Assembly: GCA_021732145.1 (NCBI GenBank)
Contig: JAKFVN010000005.1
Span: forward strand, 7,019-71,018
Direction: 5' to 3'
Source: Alphaproteobacteria bacterium
Lineage (GTDB): Bacteria > Pseudomonadota > Alphaproteobacteria > UBA9219 > RGZA01
DNA: 64,000 nucleotides
The translations under genes were made by a program, and so were the position numbers. The notes beneath the pieces were generated by a model. The model was not told where the DNA came from, made no database searches, and worked only from the letters and a program-made list of their open reading frames with translations. Shown piece after piece: positions 5,184-16,776 of this stretch (positions are counted from its first letter, which is position 1; each line of letters opens with the position of its first letter).

Positions 5184-7034
5184 TTATTTTGAGCCGTTTT
5201 TACCAATAAAATCAGCCAAAGCCGCTTTAACGCGGGCTAATACTTGGCTCCAATCGCCTGCGTTTTCCTGCCGGAACAGGCGCATGGTGGGGTACCACGG
5301 GCTGTCATCCCGCCCCAATAGCCAGCGCCAATCGGGGTTTTTGGTGATTAATGTCCAGACGGGCAGCCCAAGGGCCCCCGCCAAATGGGCCGGCGCGGAA
5401 TCGATGGTGATGAGTAAATCGAGCTCCGCCAGCGTCGCGGCAGTGTCCGCCAGATTTTTGATGTTGGGCGCAATATCCAGCACACCGAATTTTTGCATGC
5501 GCTGCGCATCACCTTCCTTCGGCTGATATTGCAGCGAATAAAACGTCATGCCCTTCATTCCCAAAATATCATCCCACATTTCAAAAGGTATCGAGCGTTC
5601 ATGGTCACGCTTATGCATGGGATTGCCCGCCCATACCAAACCAATTTTGATACCGCTGCCTTGCAGTTTAAATTTTGGGTCGCCCTTTTTGGGATTAGGC
5701 AAATAAGGAACATTGCCAGGAATGTTATTCAAACCGGTGCCGAGCATGCCGGGCAAATCCATCGTGCCGCACACCGCATCCACTTCCGGTGGAACGGTTT
5801 TATCTTCCACATTCCATGAGACAACTTTATCCGCGCCATCCCAATTTTCTAAAAGCGAATACAAAACCGGACGGACATAGGCATAAACCTTCGCGCCGCG
5901 TGCGCGCAGAATGGGCACATAGCGCAGCATGTGAATGGTATCGCCAAAGCCTTGCTCTTCCTGAACCAGAATAGTTTTACCTGCGGGATTGCTGCCATCC
6001 CATACTTCGCCGTTCATGCGCATGGCCTTGAATTTTTCCATCGCGGCCCAGCGCCAGCGATAGCGGCGGAAGCCTTCATGCAATTGGCCCGCGACCAATA
6101 AATTCATGGAACGGTTCCACGGCGCAGACAATTCGGTGGGGTTCAGCATAAACGTCTGGCTGTAATAATCATCCGCATCATCAAACTTGCATTGATTGAG
6201 CGCGAGGGAGCCGAGCGTGACGGAAACATCAGCAAGGTCGGGTTCCAATGTGAACAGCGTGCGCAAAATATAACTCGCCTTCGCATTATCGCCCTTCAGC
6301 AAATAACTGGTGCCAAGGGAAAAGATGCAATTGCGGATGCGTTCATCCTTGGTGTTCATCGAATACGCGTCCGACAGATAATCAATAATCCCGTCTTCCT
6401 TCAGGCCCAGAATTTGCTGCGCGGAACGCTGCGCGGCATCGAACATGGTTGGCTGGTCGTTATGTTCAATCGCGATGTCGTAAAGGCTGAACAGCATTTC
6501 AGAATGTTCGGGGTGGAGTTTTAAGCCCAGTTCCAGTTGCTGCTTTGCGGATTTATAATCCAAAAGCGCGCTATATATATGTGCAAGGTTGTTATGGGTA
6601 AGGGCGTGCGTGCTATCGATGCTTAGCACTTTCGCATAGCTTTCCTTGGCTTCCTTATACTTTTTCTGCTCACGCTGGGCATTGCCAAGATTGTAATATG
6701 CCTCCACCCAATCGGGCATCAGCCGCGCGGCGTTTTGAAATGCATTTTCGGCCAAGGCAAAGCGTTTTGATTTTTGACAGGCATTGCCAAGATAGAAATA
6801 GAAAAGACCGGAGTTACTATCAATCGCAATCGCTTGCTTGATATAATCAATCGCTGCATCATATTCTTTTTTATCGCAGAGCAGGGAGCCAAGCAGCGCG
6901 AGCGCATCCGCATTTTTTGGTTCAAATTTTAAAATGAGACGATAGCCGTTTTCGGCCTCGTTCAACTGGCCGGATTGATGCAACGCTGTTGCGCCTTTTA
7001 ATAATCCGCTTGTTGAAGATTCAGGCGCGCTCAT
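5184..7034 (-). CDS. TPR-repeat protein with a C-terminal glycosyltransferase family 9 (heptosyltransferase-like) domain
   Basis: Multiple TPR-like repeats are followed by a GT9-like C-terminus (QEEQGFGD ... DSAPAHLAGALGLPVWTL). Confidence 0.75.
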   Translation of the reverse strand: MSAPESSTSGLLKGATALHQSGQLNEAENGYRLILKFEPKNADALALLGSLLCDKKEYDAAIDYIKQAIAIDSNSGLFYFYLGNACQKSKRFALAENAFQNAARLMPDWVEAYYNLGNAQREQKKYKEAKESYAKVLSIDSTHALTHNNLAHIYSALLDYKSAKQQLELGLKLHPEHSEMLFSLYDIAIEHNDQPTMFDAAQRSAQQILGLKEDGIIDYLSDAYSMNTKDERIRNCIFSLGTSYLLKGDNAKASYILRTLFTLEPDLADVSVTLGSLALNQCKFDDADDYYSQTFMLNPTELSAPWNRSMNLLVAGQLHEGFRRYRWRWAAMEKFKAMRMNGEVWDGSNPAGKTILVQEEQGFGDTIHMLRYVPILRARGAKVYAYVRPVLYSLLENWDGADKVVSWNVEDKTVPPEVDAVCGTMDLPGMLGTGLNNIPGNVPYLPNPKKGDPKFKLQGSGIKIGLVWAGNPMHKRDHERSIPFEMWDDILGMKGMTFYSLQYQPKEGDAQRMQKFGVLDIAPNIKNLADTAATLAELDLLITIDSAPAHLAGALGLPVWTLITKNPDWRWLLGRDDSPWYPTMRLFRQENAGDWSQVLARVKAALADFIGKNGSK

Positions 7035-8863
7035 GCTGCGATTGCCTTGCTATTCTGGAATTCGAGAAGCGATTGCTGGACTTGTTTTAAGACAGGTGCC
7101 CAATCGCCCGAAACCGTTTGGCGGAACAGGCGCATGGTGGGGTACCACGGGCTGTCGGCTCTACCTAATAAATAGCGCCAATCGGCATCAACCGTTAGTA
7201 ATGTCCACACCGGCAGGCCCAGCGCGCCAGCCAAATGGGCGGGCGCGCTATCCACCGTTATCAGCAAATCAAGTTCAGCCAATGTCGCAGCACTGTCGGC
7301 CAACGTGTTGATTTTCTGTGCAAGATTGATGACACCGTATTGCTTCATCGTCTGCATATCTTTTTGTTCCGGTTTGAACTGCAAGCCATAAAAAGTGAAC
7401 CCTTGCATCGCCGTAATGTCTTTTAAAAGTTCAGGCGAATATGACCGCGCAAAGTTGCGTTTATGCGCAGGGTTGCCTGACCAGACGAGGCCAATTTTGA
7501 GGCCAGCACCTTCCAGCTTGTATTTTGCATCTCCCTTTTTGGGGTTGGGAATATAAGGTGCGTTTGCCGGAAGATTATTCATGGTGATGCCAAGATAACC
7601 CGGCAAATCCATCACGCCGCAGGCGCAGTCAACCTCCGGTGGAACATTTTTATTGTCGGCTTTCCATGACACAACTTGGCTTGGGCCATCCCAACCTTCC
7701 AATAGCGAATAAAGTTCCGGGCGCACATAAGCGAGCACATTCGCGCCGCGTTCTTTCAACAGCGGCATGAAGCGCAGCATTTGAAGAGTGTCGCCAAAGC
7801 CTTGCTCTTCCTGAACGGCAATCGTCTTGCCGTTTGGATTTTCGCCGTCCCAGCGTTCCACGTTTAAACGCATGCGCTTATATTTTTCCATCGCCGACCA
7901 GCGCCAGCCATAACGGCGGAACCCTTCCTGCAAATTGCCGTTAATCAGCAATGACATGGAACGGTTCCACGGCGCATCAATCTGCGCAGGGTTCATCATG
8001 AAGGTTTGCGCGTAATAGCAATCCGCCAGTTCCGGATTGTTGCGCGATAGCTGGACGGAACCCAGCATCAACTGCACTTCTTCCAAATCGGGTTCGTGTT
8101 GGTTGATTAAGCGCAGCACATAGCTGGCGCGTTGCAAATCAACGGTCAGGAAATAACTGGCCGCCACCGCCAGCAAACAATTGCGCGTTTGTTCATCGCG
8201 TGTATCCAGTTTGGGAATGCTTTCCAGATAATCGATAATATCCATGCCATTTGGCACGCCCAGTTTGATGCGCGCAATGCGCTGCGCGGCATCGAACGCG
8301 CCAAGGAAATCATTGTGTTCCAGCGCAATGTCATGCGCGCTGAACAGCAATTCCAGATTGGCAGGTTCCATCTTCAGCGCCATGTGCAATTGCGTTTTGG
8401 CGGATGGGTAATCGCTTAATTCGCTATACACCTGTGCCAGATTATTGTGGCATTGGATATGGCGCGGGGATTGTTGCAGCGCTTTCTTGTAGCTTTCCTT
8501 GGCAAAGGCGGGTTTGCCCAGTTTGCGTTGCGCATTGCCAAGATTATAAAGCGCGGCATCCCATTTCGGGGCGTAAGTGGTTGCTTTGGTGAACGAAGCT
8601 TCCGCGCTCACCACATCGCCCGATTTTTCATAGGCATTGCCGAGATGAAAATGAAACAGCGGTGCCTTCGCATCGATGGTGAGCGCTTGTTTAATCAGAG
8701 CAATCGCGTCTTGATGTTGGTTTTTGTACGAGAGGACGGAACCAAGCAGCGCCATGCCATCCGCATTGCGCGGTTCCTGATGCAGTAACAGACGATACGC
8801 GTTTTCCGCGTCATCCATCATGCCAGCTTGATGCAGGGCCATAGCACTCTGAAGTATATTCAT
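7031..8863 (-). CDS. TPR-repeat / GT9-like glycosyltransferase, tandem paralog of the 5184-7034 gene
   Basis: Same architecture and motifs as its neighbour (QEEQGFGDT ... DSAPAHLAGALGLPVWTL). Its stop overlaps the neighbour's start by 4 nt. Confidence 0.75.
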   Translation of the reverse strand: MNILQSAMALHQAGMMDDAENAYRLLLHQEPRNADGMALLGSVLSYKNQHQDAIALIKQALTIDAKAPLFHFHLGNAYEKSGDVVSAEASFTKATTYAPKWDAALYNLGNAQRKLGKPAFAKESYKKALQQSPRHIQCHNNLAQVYSELSDYPSAKTQLHMALKMEPANLELLFSAHDIALEHNDFLGAFDAAQRIARIKLGVPNGMDIIDYLESIPKLDTRDEQTRNCLLAVAASYFLTVDLQRASYVLRLINQHEPDLEEVQLMLGSVQLSRNNPELADCYYAQTFMMNPAQIDAPWNRSMSLLINGNLQEGFRRYGWRWSAMEKYKRMRLNVERWDGENPNGKTIAVQEEQGFGDTLQMLRFMPLLKERGANVLAYVRPELYSLLEGWDGPSQVVSWKADNKNVPPEVDCACGVMDLPGYLGITMNNLPANAPYIPNPKKGDAKYKLEGAGLKIGLVWSGNPAHKRNFARSYSPELLKDITAMQGFTFYGLQFKPEQKDMQTMKQYGVINLAQKINTLADSAATLAELDLLITVDSAPAHLAGALGLPVWTLLTVDADWRYLLGRADSPWYPTMRLFRQTVSGDWAPVLKQVQQSLLEFQNSKAIAA

Positions 8864-9914: not shown

Positions 9915-9991
9915 GCACCCGTAGCTCAACTGGATAGAGCATCTGACTACGGATCAGAAGGTTAGAGATTCGAATTCTCTCGGGTGCACCA
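9915..9991 (+). tRNA. tRNA-Arg (anticodon ACG)
   Basis: A manual cloverleaf fold works: acceptor stem GCACCCG/CGGGTGC, D-arm GCTC..GAGC, anticodon loop CTACGGA, T-loop TTCGAAT, and 3' CCA. Confidence 0.9.
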
Positions 9992-10047
9992 TTTCCATTG
10001 AACAACTTGCATCGTTACAAAAGCGGTTTGTGCTATTCAAATCGACT

Positions 10048-10061
10048 TGTGCTATTCAATT
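10048..10061. repeat. 13-14-bp direct repeat tgtgctattcaat(t). Copies are at 10029-10040 (11/12 match), 10048-10061 and 11451-11464, and they flank the HAD gene.
   Basis: Exact string recurrence seen by eye. Confidence 0.6.
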
Positions 10062-10563
10062 GCTTTTTGGTGTAATTTTTCTCAATAAAATCAAATAGCC
10101 TTAAAGGCAAAATCTGTGAAATACAGATGCTCTAAATTTCCGTATAAAAGTTCGTTTGAACGAGTTGTTTAATGGTGTGCCTTACAAAGCACAATCTGTA
10201 GTCGGTTAGACTGCATGCAAAGGCATCCTTAAAACCCATTTAATTTGAGGTTTTTGATATCTTCTAAAGAAAAGTTAACTGGACGCTGTTTTTCTGCTCA
10301 GAATCTCAAAATATTTTTGGCTTTATAACTCAAATATGTATTACCATTTATTTATAAATAACCCGCGCCGTGCTGTGCTATGACCCGTAAGATATCTCTA
10401 TTAAAAACACAGACCAGATCTCCGTTTGAGTATGCATACGATAAGTCTGGCTATGTTGTATTAGAAGGTTTAGTAAGAAGAGATGCTAATACTGGGCAAT
10501 TAATTGCTAAAGCTTCCAGAGTTCTAAAAGATCCACCTAAAAACAAAAAAAAGTAACTTAGCT

Positions 10564-11448
10564 ATGCCAAACATCGCAATCGTTTGGGATTTTGATGGCA
10601 CGTTGTCGCCTGATGATTCAACGACAAAAGTCGTGGAAACATTACAAGGCGATGGTAAGGGCGGTCCTTTTTGGGATTATATTCATTCTCTGCGTGGAGA
10701 TAAAAATGATCCAGCAGAATGGGAGCATATTTTAGCCATGGATGCTCCTATTTGGATGTATTCACTTTCTAGATTGGCAGTACAAAAAAAAGTTCCGCTC
10801 AATAAAGAATTCTTTCAAAAATTTGTACTACCAAAAATCAAATTATTTCCAGAAGTCCCAAGTTTTCTTAAGGCTATAAAAAAGCTGGAAGAAGCGCCTG
10901 AATTTAAAAAAGTGAATCTGGAAATACATCACTTTATTGTTTCGGCTGGTTTAAAAGAATTAATTGAACAAGTTTTTCCAGAAGGGCTTATTAAATGGAC
11001 CTTTGGATGTAGGTACACAGTTGTAATCGATAAGTTGCATCCAGATGAGCCAGAAAGCGTCCCTGTATTTTGTATGGATGAAACGGTTAAGACCAGATCG
11101 TTATTTGAAATATCTAAAGGCGCATTTTGCAATCCAGAAATAAAAGTTAACTCACGAGTTGAGGATTCAAAATTGTGGGCTTCGTTTAATAACTTCATAT
11201 ACATTGGAGATGGCGATACAGATATCCCAGCGCTTTCATTGGTCAGAAGCAAAGGTGGAATGGGGGTGGCGTTGTATAATCCCGATGCACCAAAAGAAAA
11301 AGTTAAAGCAAGGCACAAATCAATGAGGCTAGATAAAAGAGCTGATATGATAACTGCGGCAGATTTTTCATCGAGCGGCGAGCTTTTTTCCTTCATAAAA
11401 ACGCGATGCATGCAAATACGGTATAGATATGAAGCAGCGCAGAATTAA
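10564..11448 (+). CDS. HAD-superfamily hydrolase in an AT-rich (about 38% GC) segment
   Basis: HAD motif I (VWDFDGTL) and motif IV (IYIGDGDTD). GC content is well below the 55% of the flanking genome. Confidence 0.65.
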   Translation: MPNIAIVWDFDGTLSPDDSTTKVVETLQGDGKGGPFWDYIHSLRGDKNDPAEWEHILAMDAPIWMYSLSRLAVQKKVPLNKEFFQKFVLPKIKLFPEVPSFLKAIKKLEEAPEFKKVNLEIHHFIVSAGLKELIEQVFPEGLIKWTFGCRYTVVIDKLHPDEPESVPVFCMDETVKTRSLFEISKGAFCNPEIKVNSRVEDSKLWASFNNFIYIGDGDTDIPALSLVRSKGGMGVALYNPDAPKEKVKARHKSMRLDKRADMITAADFSSSGELFSFIKTRCMQIRYRYEAAQN

Positions 11449-11565
11449 TCTGTGCTATTCAATTAAGACCAATCCAATACAAACAATGACTTAAACGGCG
11501 TAATATTGAAAATTTGTAGCACAAATTTTTTTGGCTATCCGATTGTAACAAAATAGATAATCAGC

Positions 11566-11616
11566 TTTTCGTAGGCTGACTACGGATCAGAAGGTTAGAG
11601 ATTCGAATTCTCTCGG
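11566..11616 (+). repeat. perfect 51-bp direct repeat of the tRNA-Arg 3' half (identical to 9943-9993). Candidate attR or att remnant.
   Basis: ctgactacggatcagaaggttagagattcgaattctctcgggtgcaccatt is present at both positions. Confidence 0.85.
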
Positions 11617-11662
11617 GTGCACCATTCTTTCAGGCACATCACGCATAATGCTTGGATTGTTG

Positions 11663-12010
11663 GGGAAATTAAAACCCGCAGCAGTGCCAGAATTTTGCTA
11701 ACACCAACCCTACTGCGGGCAGATCGTTCTGCTTGAACAGGAACGAAGCTTCAATATATACGCCGATTTGCATAAAAAGTCATCAGGCTAAATTGCCATG
11801 ATTTGCAAATAATTAGCTGGACGATTCATGGCAAGCGCGTAGATTCGGCGGTGCTAACACCACCAACCAATCCAGTGACAGAATTCATTTTTACTCAGAA
11901 TAGTTTGAACGGCGCATTGTCCATTCCGCTTTTGCGGGTTGATGGCTCACGTCTGCGCTAACCTATTCGGGTATGCATGCATCTTTCACTGGTAACAGTG
12001 CCGGGATTCC
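11663..12010 (+). promoter_or_regulatory. conserved leader module, copy 1, upstream of the GT28 gene. The 49-nt invariant stretch is at 11671-11719.
   Basis: Contains the stretch aaaacccgcagcagtgccagaattttgctaacaccaaccctactgcggg (an imperfect hairpin); a promoter-like ttgcat-N15-taaatt; cgctggacgattca; a second gctaacacc box followed by ccagtgacagaat; and the hairpin ccgcttttgcggg. Confidence 0.6.
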
Positions 12011-13306
12011 ATGACCCACCATTTTACCTTCGATGACCAAGCGCGGCCGGATGCCGCGCCTGCCAAGCCGCGCAAACTGCAATTATTTTTTTTTGATGCG
12101 GGCGGCGGGCACCGCAGCGCCGCAGAAGCGTTGATTGAAAGCGCAAAGGCGACTTATCCCAACTGGGATATCGAACTGATGAATTTGCAGGAACTGCTGA
12201 AGAAGACCGATCCTGTCTATCAGGTAACGGGATATCAGGCGGAAACGCTTTATAACGCGGCGATCAAGCGCGGCTGGACGTATGGCTCGCGGCCATTCCT
12301 GCGCGCGTTGCAACGCGGCATCCGCATGAATGCAGCGCCAATGAGAAAAGTACTGCGGGAGTATTTCGCGCAGTCAAAACCCGATTTAATCGTGTCGGTG
12401 GTTCCGAATTTCAACAAGGTGATGTTCGATGCACTGCGTGCAGTGCATGCGGATGTACCCTATGTGACCATTATGACGGATATTGCAGATAGCCCGCCGA
12501 ATTTCTGGATGGCAAACCAAGACCAGTACATGATTGTGGGCAGCCACAAGGCATTGTTGCAGGCGCATATGTCCGGCTTCTACAGGCCGGAGCGGATTTT
12601 TGAAACATCCGGCATGATTTTGCGGCCCGCGTTTTATAAAGATGTGTCGGATGCACCGTTGACGCATGAAACGATTGGCCTAGATCCCAATAAAAAGACA
12701 GCACTGATTATGTTTGGCGGCAATGGCGCGGTGGTTTCAAAAGAAATCGCGTTGAAGCTGCAAGCGCAGGGCATTCAAAGCATCGTGCTGTGCGGCCATA
12801 ACAAGGCATTGCTGGCGGATATGCAGGGCATTGAAGGGTGCCACGCGATTGGCTTTACCCAAAAGGTTGCCGATTACATGTGCCTCGCGAACTTCTTTGT
12901 TGGTAAGCCCGGCCCCGGCAGCATGACCGAAGCGTTGCATCTGGGGCTGCCGGTGATTATCGAAAACAATTCCCGCACGATGATACAGGAACGCTACAAC
13001 ATCATCTGGGCGGAAGAAAACAGGCTGGGCGTTTCCATCAAAAACTTTGCCCATATCGGCCGCGCCGCCACATTCTTGTTAAACAGCGGGCGGCTTGACC
13101 AACATATATCCAACGCCAACCGCCTGAATAACCGCGCGGTCTACGAAATTCCAAACATGCTGGAAAGCATTATGAATGCAAACCCCGTTTCGCGAGATAC
13201 ACAGCCGATTGTGCTGCCGGAACGCATGGCCGTGCGCGCAGGTGCGCGGCTTCGCGCCATGCTTCGAAGCAGGCCACATCATCAACCCCGAACCCCTTTT
13301 ATATAG
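12011..13306 (+). CDS. GT28-family glycosyltransferase, monogalactosyldiacylglycerol-synthase-like (candidate diacylglycerol glycosyltransferase)
   Basis: N-terminal FFFDAGGGHRSAAEAL matches the MGDG-synthase GGGHRASAEA motif. C-terminal GKPGPGSMTEALHLGLPVI matches the GT28 C-terminal motif. Confidence 0.75.
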   Translation: MTHHFTFDDQARPDAAPAKPRKLQLFFFDAGGGHRSAAEALIESAKATYPNWDIELMNLQELLKKTDPVYQVTGYQAETLYNAAIKRGWTYGSRPFLRALQRGIRMNAAPMRKVLREYFAQSKPDLIVSVVPNFNKVMFDALRAVHADVPYVTIMTDIADSPPNFWMANQDQYMIVGSHKALLQAHMSGFYRPERIFETSGMILRPAFYKDVSDAPLTHETIGLDPNKKTALIMFGGNGAVVSKEIALKLQAQGIQSIVLCGHNKALLADMQGIEGCHAIGFTQKVADYMCLANFFVGKPGPGSMTEALHLGLPVIIENNSRTMIQERYNIIWAEENRLGVSIKNFAHIGRAATFLLNSGRLDQHISNANRLNNRAVYEIPNMLESIMNANPVSRDTQPIVLPERMAVRAGARLRAMLRSRPHHQPRTPFI

Positions 13307-15438: not shown

Positions 15439-15810
15439 GGGGAATTTAAAACCCGCAGCAGTGCCAGAATTTTGCTAACACCAACCCTACTGCGGGCAGA
15501 CATTCTCGCTAAACAAGAATGAAGCAATTAGATATAAGATGATTTGCATAAAAAGTCGATGAGGTAAATTGATACGAAAGTAAAATTATTCGCTGGACGA
15601 TTCAGTCAAATAATATAAATTTCATGTTGCTAACACCAACAACAACCAGTGACGGAATACCCTACTCAATTTGAAAATTATGGCATGGCAGGTTTACCCG
15701 CTTTAGCGGGGTGATTTGCATCGGCATTTTTAACAACAGAACGCGCAGGAATTGCGTTTTCTGCATGTGTGGGCGCGTGTTTTTGAACTGGCAACATTGC
15801 CGGAATACGA
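15439..15810 (+). promoter_or_regulatory. conserved leader module, copy 2, upstream of the four-gene operon. The 49-nt stretch is at 15447-15495.
   Basis: Same ordered blocks as copy 1: the 49-nt stretch, ttgcat-N15-taaatt, cgctggacgattca, gctaacaccaacaacaaccagtgacggaat, the hairpin cccgctttagcgggg, and attgccggaatacga immediately before the ATG. Confidence 0.6.
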
Positions 15811-16776
15811 ATGTCCCCTGATGCGAATTTACGGGAACGTGCGGAGCTTTGCCCAGAACCCAGCAGAGCATTGCCATTAGATGGGCAAGCTGCGCGTCGT
15901 CCACATGAAGTGATTTATACGCCAGCGCTCGCTGAAGCTATTCCTGATCCTCAATTGCAACGTATACCTCCGGGGCATGGGCTGGTGATGGTTGGCGAGA
16001 AGAAGCGCGCAATTGTTTTTCGTGACCATAGCAGCCGTGAAAACGTTCGCCGCACGCGCCAGACCTTGGCGCTGTGCGAACGTTATCATTATGATGTGTT
16101 GGTTGTTGACCCAGCGCGCGGGCAGCATGACGTGTTGCTGGATAAACGCGCGCAGGAATTTCTGCGCATAGACCGCGATTTACCGCTGATTACGCTGCAA
16201 ACTCCGCAATTAAGCAGGGAGCAGATGCTGAGCTGGCTGTTCAGTGCCAATACCAATATGGTACTGGAAGTTGCCAAGGACGGCCTGCGTATTCTGGCGG
16301 ATAGCCATGTGGATGCGCCATACGCGCAGAAAAAACTAAACCGCAATACGGATGTGATTGGCGTGAGCACGCATGAACGTTTGACGGATGATACCAAACA
16401 TCATGCACTCACATCATCTTACTTGATTATCGCAATTGATGAAACGCATGCGCAGCAACTTATCCGCAGTTATGGCACGGCGCATGCGGTGGTACATGGC
16501 GGGCATTCGCATGATTGTCAGCAAATTTCCGAAATGGCAGCGCGCACAGATAAAAAAGTTGCCGTATTCCACCCCGACCCGCCGCAACGTTTACAGCATG
16601 CAGGAAAAATAAGCTTATCGCGCCTTCGCGCCGATAACGCCGTGGTGATTACCACCACGCCGGACATGATCCGCGCATTGAAAGATCTTTCCAGGCCAAC
16701 GGGAGGCGCGCCGTTTTTTGCGCAGCGTCCCGGAACGCGTAACGGAGGAATGGTTCACGCCCCGCAAGTTTTATAA
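15811..16776 (+). CDS. hypothetical protein (321 aa), first gene of the large operon
   Basis: ORF directly downstream of leader copy 2. No motif recognised. Confidence 0.55.
   Translation: MSPDANLRERAELCPEPSRALPLDGQAARRPHEVIYTPALAEAIPDPQLQRIPPGHGLVMVGEKKRAIVFRDHSSRENVRRTRQTLALCERYHYDVLVVDPARGQHDVLLDKRAQEFLRIDRDLPLITLQTPQLSREQMLSWLFSANTNMVLEVAKDGLRILADSHVDAPYAQKKLNRNTDVIGVSTHERLTDDTKHHALTSSYLIIAIDETHAQQLIRSYGTAHAVVHGGHSHDCQQISEMAARTDKKVAVFHPDPPQRLQHAGKISLSRLRADNAVVITTTPDMIRALKDLSRPTGGAPFFAQRPGTRNGGMVHAPQVL

What the first reader, a model, noticed from the sequence alone, without database searches (positions are those of the whole stretch)
9943..11616. Perfect 51-bp direct repeat of the tRNA-Arg 3' half delimits a 1.6-kb AT-rich cassette carrying a HAD hydrolase, with nested 13-bp repeats
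The string ctgactacggatcagaaggttagagattcgaattctctcgggtgcaccatt occurs at 9943-9993, inside the tRNA, and again at 11566-11616. The sequence between the copies is about 38% GC versus about 55% for the flanks. It contains a single gene, a HAD hydrolase. That gene is flanked by the repeat tgtgctattcaat(t) at 10029, 10048 and 11451. This is the attL/attR footprint of a site-specific integration at tRNA-Arg, yet no recombinase remains. It is either a heavily decayed island or an integrase-less cassette captured in trans.
Basis: seen in the sequence. Interest (0 to 1): 0.6.

Follow-up and report, generated by a model that had tools for sequence, protein, structure and literature searches.

The report
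Integrase-less islet at tRNA-Arg
A 1.6-kb piece of foreign, AT-rich DNA sits in the end of an arginine tRNA gene between two perfect copies of the tRNA's 3' part; it carries a small two-gene operon (a candidate phage-defence phosphatase and a tiny partner protein) but no recombinase, which makes it a stripped-down example of a well-known kind of genomic island.

Summary
The second copy of the 51-nt repeat lies at 11576-11626, not 11566-11616. The insert holds two conserved genes, not one.

The repeat runs from position 29 of tRNA-Arg(ACG) to 2 nt past its 3' end. That is the classic attL/attR scar of an integrase that targets the anticodon loop. The 1,582 nt between the copies are the most AT-rich stretch of the whole window (36% versus 52% GC). 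The closest available relative has the identical tRNA but lacks both the insert and the duplication.

No integrase or integrase fragment was found in the islet or within 10 kb either side. Ten further window ORFs tested were also not integrases.

The cargo is a 58-aa ORF followed by a 294-aa HAD phosphatase. The phosphatase matches PADLOC's untested defence candidate PDC-S34.

The same gene pair recurs in many bacteria. It is usually AT-richer than its host and enriched next to tRNA genes. Twice more it forms a 1.3-1.5-kb unit flanked by repeats of a target gene's 3' end, again without an integrase.

Verdict: an ordinary CIME-like integrative islet with a moderately interesting recurrent minimal cargo. 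Whether it can still move is untested.

The parts
9915..9991 (+). Intact tRNA-Arg(ACG) gene, the integration target
   Evidence: ARAGORN; Rfam RF00005 at 67.8 bits; identical 77-nt sequence in relative L015.
9943..9993 (+). Direct repeat copy 1 (attL core): tRNA positions 29-77 plus 2 nt
   Evidence: Exact 51-nt match to 11576-11626, with 0 expected by chance.
9994..10379 (+). Left non-coding arm of the islet (34% GC). It holds two tandem 14-nt repeats and presumably the operon's promoter.
   Evidence: Sequence; GC. Only short ORFs are present and six-frame pieces have no Pfam match, so no integrase remnant. Folding is unremarkable, z = -1.75.
10029..10061 (+). Two tandem copies of TGTGCTATTCAA(A/T)T (10029-10042 and 10048-10061), 36-68 nt inside attL. 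Candidate arm-type recombinase or regulator binding sites (inferred).
   Evidence: three copies in the window, all inside the islet; 0 of 100 shuffles give 3 or more.
10380..10556 (+). 58-aa ORF with a basic tail and the motif YDKSxYVV..RRDAxxGR. It is the conserved upstream partner of the HAD gene.
   Evidence: Alignments A1 and A4. An HMM built from A1 finds it directly upstream of HAD homologues in 38 of 45 non-redundant loci that have upstream sequence. No Pfam, PADLOC, PHROG or NCBIfam family matches. The AF2 model is poor, pLDDT 62.
10564..11448 (+). 294-aa HAD-superfamily phosphatase, a member of PADLOC candidate family PDC-S34
   Evidence: PADLOC PDLC05002, E = 5.7e-45. HAD motifs are invariant in the alignment: D9, D11, T13, K176, G215-D216-G217, D220. 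The Pfam HAD hit is just below cutoff. The AF2 model (pLDDT 72.8) matches HAD phosphatase structures.
11449..11575 (+). Right non-coding arm (31.5% GC). It holds the third 14-nt repeat (11451-11464, 3 nt after the stop codon) and a partial inverted copy, TAGCACAAA (11517-11525).
11576..11626 (+). Direct repeat copy 2 (attR core): a displaced tRNA 3' fragment, not a gene
   Evidence: No tRNA is called here. It is followed by native sequence that aligns with L015.

Best explanation
**What it is.** This is the scar of a site-specific, tyrosine-integrase-type insertion into the tRNA-Arg(ACG) gene of an uncultured alphaproteobacterium.

**How it formed (inferred).** A circular element carried a copy of the tRNA from the anticodon stem to the 3' end. 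It recombined with the chromosomal gene. That rebuilt an intact tRNA at the left junction (attL) and pushed a 51-nt tRNA fragment to the right junction (attR).

**What remains.** The unit is 1,582 nt with no recombination or transfer genes, which fits the definition of a CIME-type islet. It consists of:
- a left arm with two short repeats;
- a tightly coupled operon of a 58-aa protein and a 294-aa HAD phosphatase;
- a right arm with a third, direct copy of the repeat and a partial inverted one.

**Most likely history (inferred).** It is the minimised derivative of a larger integrative element. Everything except the selected cargo and the att sites has been deleted. It cannot move by itself. 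Excision or re-integration would need a matching integrase supplied in trans.

**The cargo (inferred from family membership only).** The operon is most likely a phage-defence or toxin-antitoxin-like module. The phosphatase would be the effector and the small protein its partner.

**Shown:** the repeat, the composition, the gene content, the absence of an integrase, the absence of the insert in a relative, and the recurrence of the cassette.

**Inferred:** the integrase mechanism, the deletion history, the role of the short repeats, and the defence function.
For: **The scar**
- The perfect 51-nt repeat covers tRNA positions 29-77 plus 2 nt. One copy is in an intact tRNA; the other is a bare fragment.
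- The insert is the GC minimum of the window, 36.4% against a median of 52%.
- The sequence after copy 2 is native. It aligns with the region upstream of the same glycosyltransferase gene in L015 and L013.

**Absence in a relative**
- L015 is fully syntenic, has the identical tRNA-Arg and a single repeat copy, and has no cassette.

**Not an assembly artefact**
- The identical HAD protein is on two long contigs with the same neighbours.

**No integrase**
- Searches found none.

**The short repeat**
- It occurs only inside the islet, on both arms.

**The cargo family**
- PDC-S34 match, E = 5.7e-45.
- Catalytic HAD motifs are invariant.
- The small ORF is conserved upstream in 38 of 45 loci.
- The HAD gene is AT-richer than its flanks in 26 of 29 loci.
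- A same-strand tRNA lies just upstream in 6 of 25 loci, against a background rate of 0.02 (p = 7.5e-6).

**Two more scars around the same pair**
- L007 (Micavibrio) sits at tRNA-Asp with a decayed tRNA repeat.
- L041 has a 100-nt, 92%-identical repeat of the 3' end of a protein-coding gene.

**Literature**
- Definition of a CIME: PMC5704250.
- Logic of tRNA att sites, with Arg among the commonest targets: PMC1635311.
Against: - No integrase that recognises this site was found anywhere, so the recombinase step rests on the shape of the scar.
- No true empty site from the same species was recovered. L015 is a different species and has yjdM at that position. Logan contigs of the same strain break inside the tRNA or in the downstream repeated leader module.
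- A deletion that removed the integrase without a trace while leaving both att cores perfect is assumed, not shown.
- Among 127 ORFs within 7 kb of the cassette in 22 other loci, no integrase family is matched by two or more members. Intermediate stages of the proposed decay are therefore not seen.
- The defence role of PDC-S34 is untested. No paper in the library mentions it, and most of the cassette's neighbours are housekeeping genes.
Confidence: 0.6

Rival explanations
1. The unit is a living, non-autonomous mini-element rather than a relic. In this reading the att sites plus the two-gene operon are the whole element. It is excised and integrated in trans by tyrosine integrases of co-resident islands or phages that share its att specificity. 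The 14-nt repeats would be its arm-type binding sites.
For: - Both att cores are perfect, and a short repeat is kept on both arms in direct and inverted orientation.
- There is no integrase fragment at all.
- The same layout occurs at three different target genes: window, L007 and L041. It reads: repeat of the target's 3' end, then 200-390 nt, then the small ORF and HAD gene, then 70-130 nt, then the repeat again.
- Integrases are almost never found near the cassette.
Against: - No helper integrase, free circle or empty site was found.
- The 1,663-nt Logan contig with a 30-nt terminal overlap starts exactly at the repeat's branch point. Another sample gives the 1,642-nt contig expected for a repeat-bounded unitig. 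It is therefore a de Bruijn graph effect, not evidence for a circle.
- The arms share no motif between the three elements.
- The three targets would need three different helper integrases.
- In other lineages the pair is stably embedded, for example between tmk and holB in two diverged genomes.
- The tRNA-Arg 3' 32-mer and the paired 12-mer motif have no exact match in IMG/VR.
Confidence: 0.25
2. Integration happened without a site-specific recombinase. A circular DNA carrying the cassette plus a captured tRNA-Arg 3' fragment integrated by RecA-dependent single crossover (Campbell type) at the identical chromosomal tRNA sequence. This would duplicate the 51-nt homology.
For: - The repeat is perfect, and the tRNA sequence is 100% conserved between distinct species, so homology would be available in many hosts.
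- The repeat lengths differ between cases (51 nt, about 45 nt and 100 nt) and the targets differ.
- No integrase is ever nearby.
Against: - 51 nt is near the lower limit for efficient RecA recombination (established knowledge, not tested here).
- The repeats begin in the anticodon stem-loop and end at the gene's 3' end, in both tRNA cases and in the protein-gene case. That is the pattern integrases produce (PMC1635311).
- In L041 the two copies are only 92% identical. This suits a diverged attP better than a homologous crossover, unless the event is old.
Confidence: 0.08
3. Metagenome assembly artefact. A small AT-rich replicon or a fragment from another organism that shares the tRNA-Arg sequence was threaded into this chromosome at the conserved tRNA.
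For: - The window comes from a MEGAHIT metagenome contig.
- The insert's composition differs sharply from its flanks.
- k=31 assemblies collapse the repeat.
Against: - The repeat (51 nt) is much shorter than the final k (127, from the contig name), so the junctions need spanning sequence.
- A second long contig (50-200 kb block) carries the identical protein with the same neighbours.
- Similar scars around the same gene pair occur in a complete Micavibrio chromosome, CP066681.
Confidence: 0.03

Closest known systems
[quoted passage not shown]
   Same: It is flanked by intact attL and attR at the 3' end of a tRNA gene, has no integrase or transfer genes, and carries only cargo.
   Different: - Described CIMEs are mostly in Streptococcus and other Firmicutes, and are recognised by their kinship to a known ICE or IME. 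Here no parent element or helper is known.
- The host is an uncultured alphaproteobacterium, and mobilisation is untested.
- The unit is very small (1.6 kb).
- The same cargo recurs in the same minimal form at other targets.
tRNA-gene genomic islands and prophages with anticodon-loop att sites (for example P4-like integrase elements; Williams 2002, as cited in PMC1635311)
   Same: The target is a tRNA-Arg gene. The identity block runs from the anticodon stem-loop to the 3' end. The tRNA is regenerated and the native flank follows attR.
   Different: There is no integrase gene, which is the feature such elements are normally recognised by. The size is 1.6 kb rather than 5-100 kb.
PADLOC phage defence candidate PDC-S34, and HAD phosphatase effectors in defence systems (CARF-HAD, PMC12715507; PUA-Cal-HAD, PMC12871103; DS-9, PMC13092281)
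   Same: The HAD protein matches the PDC-S34 model at E = 5.7e-45. It has an intact catalytic core and is carried on horizontally acquired DNA.
   Different: - PDC-S34 is an untested candidate listed as a single gene. Here it always comes with a conserved upstream ORF of about 45-65 aa.
- It has no CARF, PUA or calcineurin-like sensor domains.
- Its neighbours are mostly housekeeping genes rather than defence islands.
Integron gene cassettes
   Same: A small, integrase-less unit of one or two genes that would depend on a recombinase encoded elsewhere.
   Different: - There is no attC. No GTTRRRY or RYYYAAC core lies at either boundary.
- The boundaries are copies of the target gene's 3' end, not attC x attI junctions.
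- The cassette has a long upstream non-coding arm.

Membership tests
tRNA-integrated genomic island or prophage (integrase-mediated) | Direct repeat made of the 3' part of a tRNA gene, with an intact tRNA at one end and a fragment at the other | tested here: met
   A 51-nt perfect repeat at 9943-9993 and 11576-11626. Only one tRNA-Arg is called.
tRNA-integrated genomic island or prophage (integrase-mediated) | Insert is absent from related genomes, with native sequence resuming after attR | tested here: met
   L015 has the identical tRNA, a single repeat copy and no cassette. The downstream leader and glycosyltransferase gene align. Caveat: L015 is a different species and has yjdM at the site. 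No same-species empty site was found.
tRNA-integrated genomic island or prophage (integrase-mediated) | Integrase gene inside the element, next to an att site | tested here: not met
   The only ORFs are the 58-aa ORF and the HAD gene. The arms give no Pfam hits. No integrase lies within 10 kb or among 10 other window ORFs.
CIME (cis-mobilizable element) | attL and attR retained; integration and transfer genes lost | tested here: met
   Definition from PMC5704250.
CIME (cis-mobilizable element) | Derived from an identifiable ICE or IME, and excisable or mobilisable by a related element's integrase | not testable with these tools
   No related integrase-bearing element was found. blastn against phages and plasmids gave nothing, and IMG/VR pattern scans gave nothing. 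Excision needs read mapping or PCR.
HAD-superfamily phosphatase | Motifs I-IV (DxDxT, S/T, K, GDxxxD) and a Rossmann-like HAD fold | tested here: met
   Invariant D9, D11, T13, K176, D216 and D220 across 15 homologues. Top Foldseek PDB hits are HAD phosphatases, with E down to 1.4e-5 and TM 0.45-0.55. Pfam HAD scores 25.1 bits against a cutoff of 27.
PADLOC PDC-S34 (phage defence candidate) | Match to the family HMM | tested here: met
   PDLC05002 at E = 5.7e-45, covering residues 2-290. Two further PDC-S34 models also match.
PADLOC PDC-S34 (phage defence candidate) | Protection against phage | not testable with these tools
   No paper in the library mentions PDC-S34. PDC entries are candidates only (PMC11514479).
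Integron gene cassette | attC recombination site with R''/R' cores at the cassette boundary | tested here: not met
   The only GTTRRRY is internal, at 10205. There is none at the boundaries.

The most novel reading that the evidence does not exclude
The small-ORF plus HAD (PDC-S34) pair, together with about 0.3-0.5 kb of arms and a copy of a host gene's 3' end, may be a recurrent integrase-less mobile cassette. It would be a miniature 'att-bearing' defence cassette of 1.3-1.6 kb. It would insert into the ends of tRNA or protein genes using integrases borrowed from other elements, and it would change target by swapping its att segment.

The window's copy, with perfect 51-nt cores and repeats on both arms, would be a still-competent example. 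An even more remote variant, that one of the two proteins itself catalyses the recombination, is not excluded, but nothing supports it.
Probability: 0.22. Interest if true: 0.65.

Novelty: new member of a known kind. Interest (0 to 1): 0.4.

Why it matters
- **Island finders would miss it.** Tools that require an integrase gene skip islets like this. It is a clean, datable example of how a single useful operon can be all that is left of, or all that travels with, a tRNA-targeting element.
- **An annotation correction.** PADLOC's 'single-gene' candidate PDC-S34 is really a two-gene operon with a conserved partner of about 45-65 aa. Anyone testing the system needs to clone both genes.
- **A testable hypothesis.** The same pair recurs in the same minimal, repeat-flanked form at three unrelated targets. 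That suggests small defence cassettes may spread by borrowing integrases.
- **Otherwise ordinary.** Apart from these points the structure is a standard integration scar.

Tried and rejected
1. **Second tRNA gene.** Rejected by ARAGORN and Rfam.
2. **Structured RNA in the islet.** Rfam at E <= 1 found only the tRNA. Folding of the left arm is unremarkable.
3. **Integrase remnants in the arms.** Six-frame pieces gave no Pfam match.
4. **Integrase elsewhere in the window.** Ten candidate ORFs are housekeeping genes.
5. **Origin of the insert.** blastn against phage and plasmid collections found nothing. The HAD family is absent from IMG/VR. The tRNA 32-mer and the paired 12-mer have no exact match in IMG/VR. 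The best non-identical protein homologue is only 75% identical.
6. **Same-species empty site.**
   - The genome scan with the downstream glycosyltransferase gave one distant locus with broken synteny (L013).
   - Exact-protein look-ups gave Logan contigs that end inside the tRNA or start in the repeated leader module.
7. **Excised circle.** The 1,663-nt contig L002 has a 30-nt terminal overlap. It starts exactly at the repeat's out-branch, and a 1,642-nt version exists in another sample. It is therefore a k=31 graph effect and not evidence.
8. **Shared arm motifs between the three repeat-flanked cassettes.** None beyond chance.
9. **PDB sequence hit to CroV588** (E = 1.8e-16). This is a sum of many weak matches of one 25-residue stretch to an LRR repeat. 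It is spurious.
10. **Structure of the small ORF.** pLDDT is 62 and only a beta-hairpin is predicted. It is not helix-rich like excisionases, but the model is too poor to use.
11. **attC-like cores.** None at the boundaries.
Full report
**Observation**

Start-to-start spacing is 1,633 nt and no match is expected by chance.

Copy 1 lies inside the only tRNA-Arg gene, anticodon ACG, at 9915-9991 (ARAGORN; Rfam tRNA 67.8 bits). Counting along the gene, the repeat begins at tRNA position 29, in the 5' strand of the anticodon stem, 6 nt before the anticodon. It runs through the T arm, the acceptor strand and CCA, and ends 2 nt beyond. Copy 2 is a bare fragment. No tRNA is called there, and the preceding bases are unrelated to the tRNA's 5' half.

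The 1,582 nt between the copies are 36.4% GC, against 51-52% on either side. No other 1,582-nt window of the 64 kb is lower.

The 14-nt repeat TGTGCTATTCAA(A/T)T is at 10029, 10048 and 11451 and nowhere else in the window. In 100 shuffles, none gave three or more copies. A partial inverted copy, TAGCACAAA, lies at 11517-11525.

**Content of the insert**

There are two genes, not one.
- A 58-aa ORF (10380-10556) ends 7 nt before the second gene.
- A 294-aa ORF follows (10564-11448).

The larger protein is a HAD-superfamily enzyme.
- Its Pfam HAD hits fall just below the cutoff.
- The catalytic motifs are invariant among 15 homologues (DxDxT at residues 9-13, the conserved lysine, GDGxTD at 215-220).
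- An AlphaFold model (pLDDT 72.8) finds HAD phosphatases as its best PDB neighbours.
- It matches PADLOC's PDC-S34 model at E = 5.7e-45. PDC entries are untested "phage defence candidates" (PMC11514479), and no paper in the library mentions PDC-S34.
- HAD phosphatases do act as effectors in several validated defence systems (PMC13092281).

The small protein has no family match and only a poor structural model.

The two non-coding arms (386 nt and 127 nt) contain no integrase remnant, no Rfam match and no unusual folding.

**Surroundings and relatives**

The window is part of a 774-kb metagenome contig from an uncultured alphaproteobacterium. Its neighbours are housekeeping and cell-envelope genes. 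No integrase lies within 10 kb or among ten further ORFs tested.

The closest available relative is L015, an alphaproteobacterial MAG whose GT2 neighbour is 84% identical.
- It is syntenic over the whole 20 kb and has an identical tRNA-Arg.
- It has only one copy of the repeat and no cassette.
- After the tRNA come about 60 nt, a yjdM gene, and then the same conserved non-coding module and glycosyltransferase gene that follow copy 2 in the window.

The insert is therefore lineage-specific, and native sequence resumes after copy 2.

A strict same-species empty site could not be recovered. Contigs of the same strain in six Logan runs break inside the tRNA or in the downstream module. The one genome-collection hit has broken synteny.

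The integrated form is not an assembly artefact. A second long contig carries the identical protein with the same neighbours. The repeat is also far shorter than the assembler's final k.

**The cassette elsewhere**

The HAD protein has 531 relatives among 90%-identity clusters. The best non-identical one is 75% identical. Among 50%-identity representatives, 20 match at E <= 1e-30 and 293 at E <= 1e-10. None is in IMG/VR.

I examined 12 loci obtained by exact-protein look-up and 50 from JGI metagenomes. Four patterns emerged.

1. *The small ORF travels with the HAD gene.* It lies directly upstream in 38 of 45 non-redundant loci that have upstream sequence. This is a conserved two-gene operon, although PADLOC lists it as a single gene.
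2. *The HAD gene is AT-richer than its flanks.* This holds in 26 of 29 loci, by up to 19 percentage points. Low GC is a property of the family and does not date the window's insertion.
3. *The pair is enriched next to tRNA genes.* A same-strand tRNA ends 150-1,700 nt upstream in 6 of 25 loci (Arg, Asp, Gln twice, Glu, Ala). The background rate is 0.02 per such interval (p = 7.5e-6).
4. *Two further loci show the same minimal, repeat-flanked layout.*
   - In Micavibrio CP066681 (L007) the pair follows tRNA-Asp. About 100 nt after the HAD stop lies a decayed copy of the tRNA from the anticodon loop onward, including a similar terminator-like tail.
   - In L041 (flanks 69% GC, HAD gene 46%) the pair is bracketed by a sharply bounded 100-nt, 92%-identical repeat. 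That repeat is the last ~97 nt plus the stop codon of a membrane-protein gene.

Other contexts also occur.
- The pair is wedged between tmk and holB in two diverged genomes.
- It sits at the edge of an island with a serine recombinase, ParB and PLD genes.
- It lies inside a 3.7-kb segment bracketed by a duplicated vapB and vapC fragment, together with a DUF1016 nuclease gene.

Among 127 ORFs within 7 kb of the cassette in 22 loci, no integrase family is matched by two or more members. The neighbours are mostly core genes.

**Mechanism**

[quoted passage not shown] The protein-gene case (L041) follows the same logic.

I therefore read the window's structure as attL - cargo - attR of a tyrosine-integrase-type event. 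This is inferred from anatomy.

With att sites kept and recombination genes gone, it meets the published definition of a CIME (PMC5704250).

The 14-nt repeats sit 36-68 nt inside attL and 62-125 nt inside attR, in direct and inverted orientation. That is where arm-type integrase sites are expected, but this role is only inferred. They could equally be regulator sites for the operon.

**Relic or active mini-element?**

For a relic:
- The cassette is also found as cargo at the edge of a larger island (L003).
- The tRNA-adjacent loci form a plausible decay series: a perfect repeat in the window, a decayed repeat in L007, and no repeat in L019, L029, L031 and L062.
- In some lineages the pair is stably embedded.

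For an active, trans-mobilised unit:
- The att cores are perfect and both arms are preserved.
- There is no integrase trace at all.
- The same compact layout occurs at three targets.
- Integrases are almost never nearby.

A 1,663-nt Logan contig with a 30-nt terminal overlap looked like a circle. It starts exactly at the repeat's branch point, and another sample yields the 1,642-nt contig expected for a repeat-bounded unitig. It is therefore not evidence for a circle.

I rate the relic reading somewhat higher, at 0.6 against 0.25. A RecA-mediated Campbell insertion (0.08) and an assembly chimera (0.03) are minor alternatives.

**Comparison and verdict**

This is a new member of a known kind: a CIME-like, integrase-less islet at a tRNA gene.

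Three points go beyond the routine.
- PDC-S34 is shown to be a two-gene operon.
- The operon is enriched next to tRNA genes.
- It recurs as the sole content of repeat-flanked units of 1.3-1.6 kb.

Function and mobility remain untested. The decisive checks are junction read mapping, a whole-genome integrase search, circle PCR, and phage or toxicity assays of the operon.

Noticed in passing
window 11668-11890 and 15442-15660: A non-coding 'leader module' of about 230 nt occurs twice, upstream of the glycosyltransferase gene at 12011 and of the gene at 15811. It starts with the hairpin AACCCGCAGCAGTGCCAGAATTTTGCTAACACCAACCCTACTGCGGGCAG and ends with GCTGGACGATTCA...TGCTAACACCA.CAACC..AGTGAC.GAAT. 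A 53-nt core is identical in relative L015, and the 3' part is conserved in L013. Rfam gave no match over the first copy. The module also explains why Logan contigs of this strain start about 320 nt upstream of the glycosyltransferase gene.
   Followed up: partly
L015 9376-9729 (minus strand in the locus), compared with window 11627-11660: Relative L015 has a yjdM (zinc-ribbon, PhnA-like) gene between tRNA-Arg and the leader module. The window has only about 35 nt there. Either yjdM was lost in the window's lineage, possibly together with events at this att site, or it was gained in L015.
   Followed up: partly
L041 1298-1397 and 2738-2837 (JGI Ga0116151_10038449): A third minimal cassette. 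The small ORF and HAD gene (46% GC, flanks 69%) are bracketed by a sharply bounded 100-nt, 92%-identical direct repeat. The repeat is the 3' end plus stop codon of a membrane-protein gene. No integrase is on the 3.2-kb contig.
   Followed up: yes
L007 9490-11085 (Micavibrio aeruginosavorus MAG, CP066681): The same gene pair lies directly 3' of tRNA-Asp(GTC). A decayed copy of the tRNA from the anticodon loop onward lies about 100 nt after the HAD stop. It has a 26-nt core at 96% identity and an 8-nt deletion, and the similarity continues into a terminator-like tail.
   Followed up: yes
L008-L012 (for example L008 9147-12012; L011 9137-12160): In two diverged genomes the small ORF and HAD pair is wedged tightly between tmk (thymidylate kinase) and holB (DNA polymerase III delta'), with no spare DNA. 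This suggests long residence in a nucleotide-metabolism and replication operon, and it may hint at a nucleotide substrate.
   Followed up: no
L045 827-1180 and 4520-5198: A 3.7-kb segment holds a DUF1016/YhcG PD-(D/E)XK nuclease gene and the small ORF and HAD pair. It is bracketed by a 270-nt, 89%-identical duplication of a vapB-like antitoxin gene. A vapC 3' fragment lies on one side and an intact vapC on the other.
   Followed up: partly
L003 5651-11109: The closest long-contig homologue (72% identical) sits at the edge of an island with a large serine recombinase, two ParB/RepB genes and a PLD-family gene. Three copies of a 19-nt repeat, AAAATTCCCTGTTCCGTTT, lie just after the HAD stop (10943, 10984, 11091). 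This is reminiscent of the repeat placed right after the stop codon in the window.
   Followed up: no
L002 (Logan DRR836179_25653, 1,663 nt), equivalent to window 9964-11626: This contig consists of the last 30 nt of the 51-nt repeat, the insert and the full repeat, so its ends overlap by 30 nt (k-1). It looks circular, but it begins exactly at the repeat's branch point. In another sample the corresponding contig is 1,642 nt, which is the size expected for a repeat-bounded unitig. It is ambiguous and not counted as evidence of excision.
   Followed up: partly
window 10380-10556 and homologous loci: PADLOC lists PDC-S34 as a single-gene candidate. However, a conserved ORF of 45-65 aa (motif YDKSxYVV..RRDAxxGR, basic tail) precedes the HAD gene by 2-10 nt in 38 of 45 loci. 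It is often not called as a gene: only 7 entries were found in the protein database.
   Followed up: yes
window 5184-8863: Two tandem paralogous genes of about 610 aa each encode TPR repeats fused to a glycosyltransferase-9-like domain. [quoted passage not shown] The arrangement is conserved in L015 and L016.
   Followed up: no
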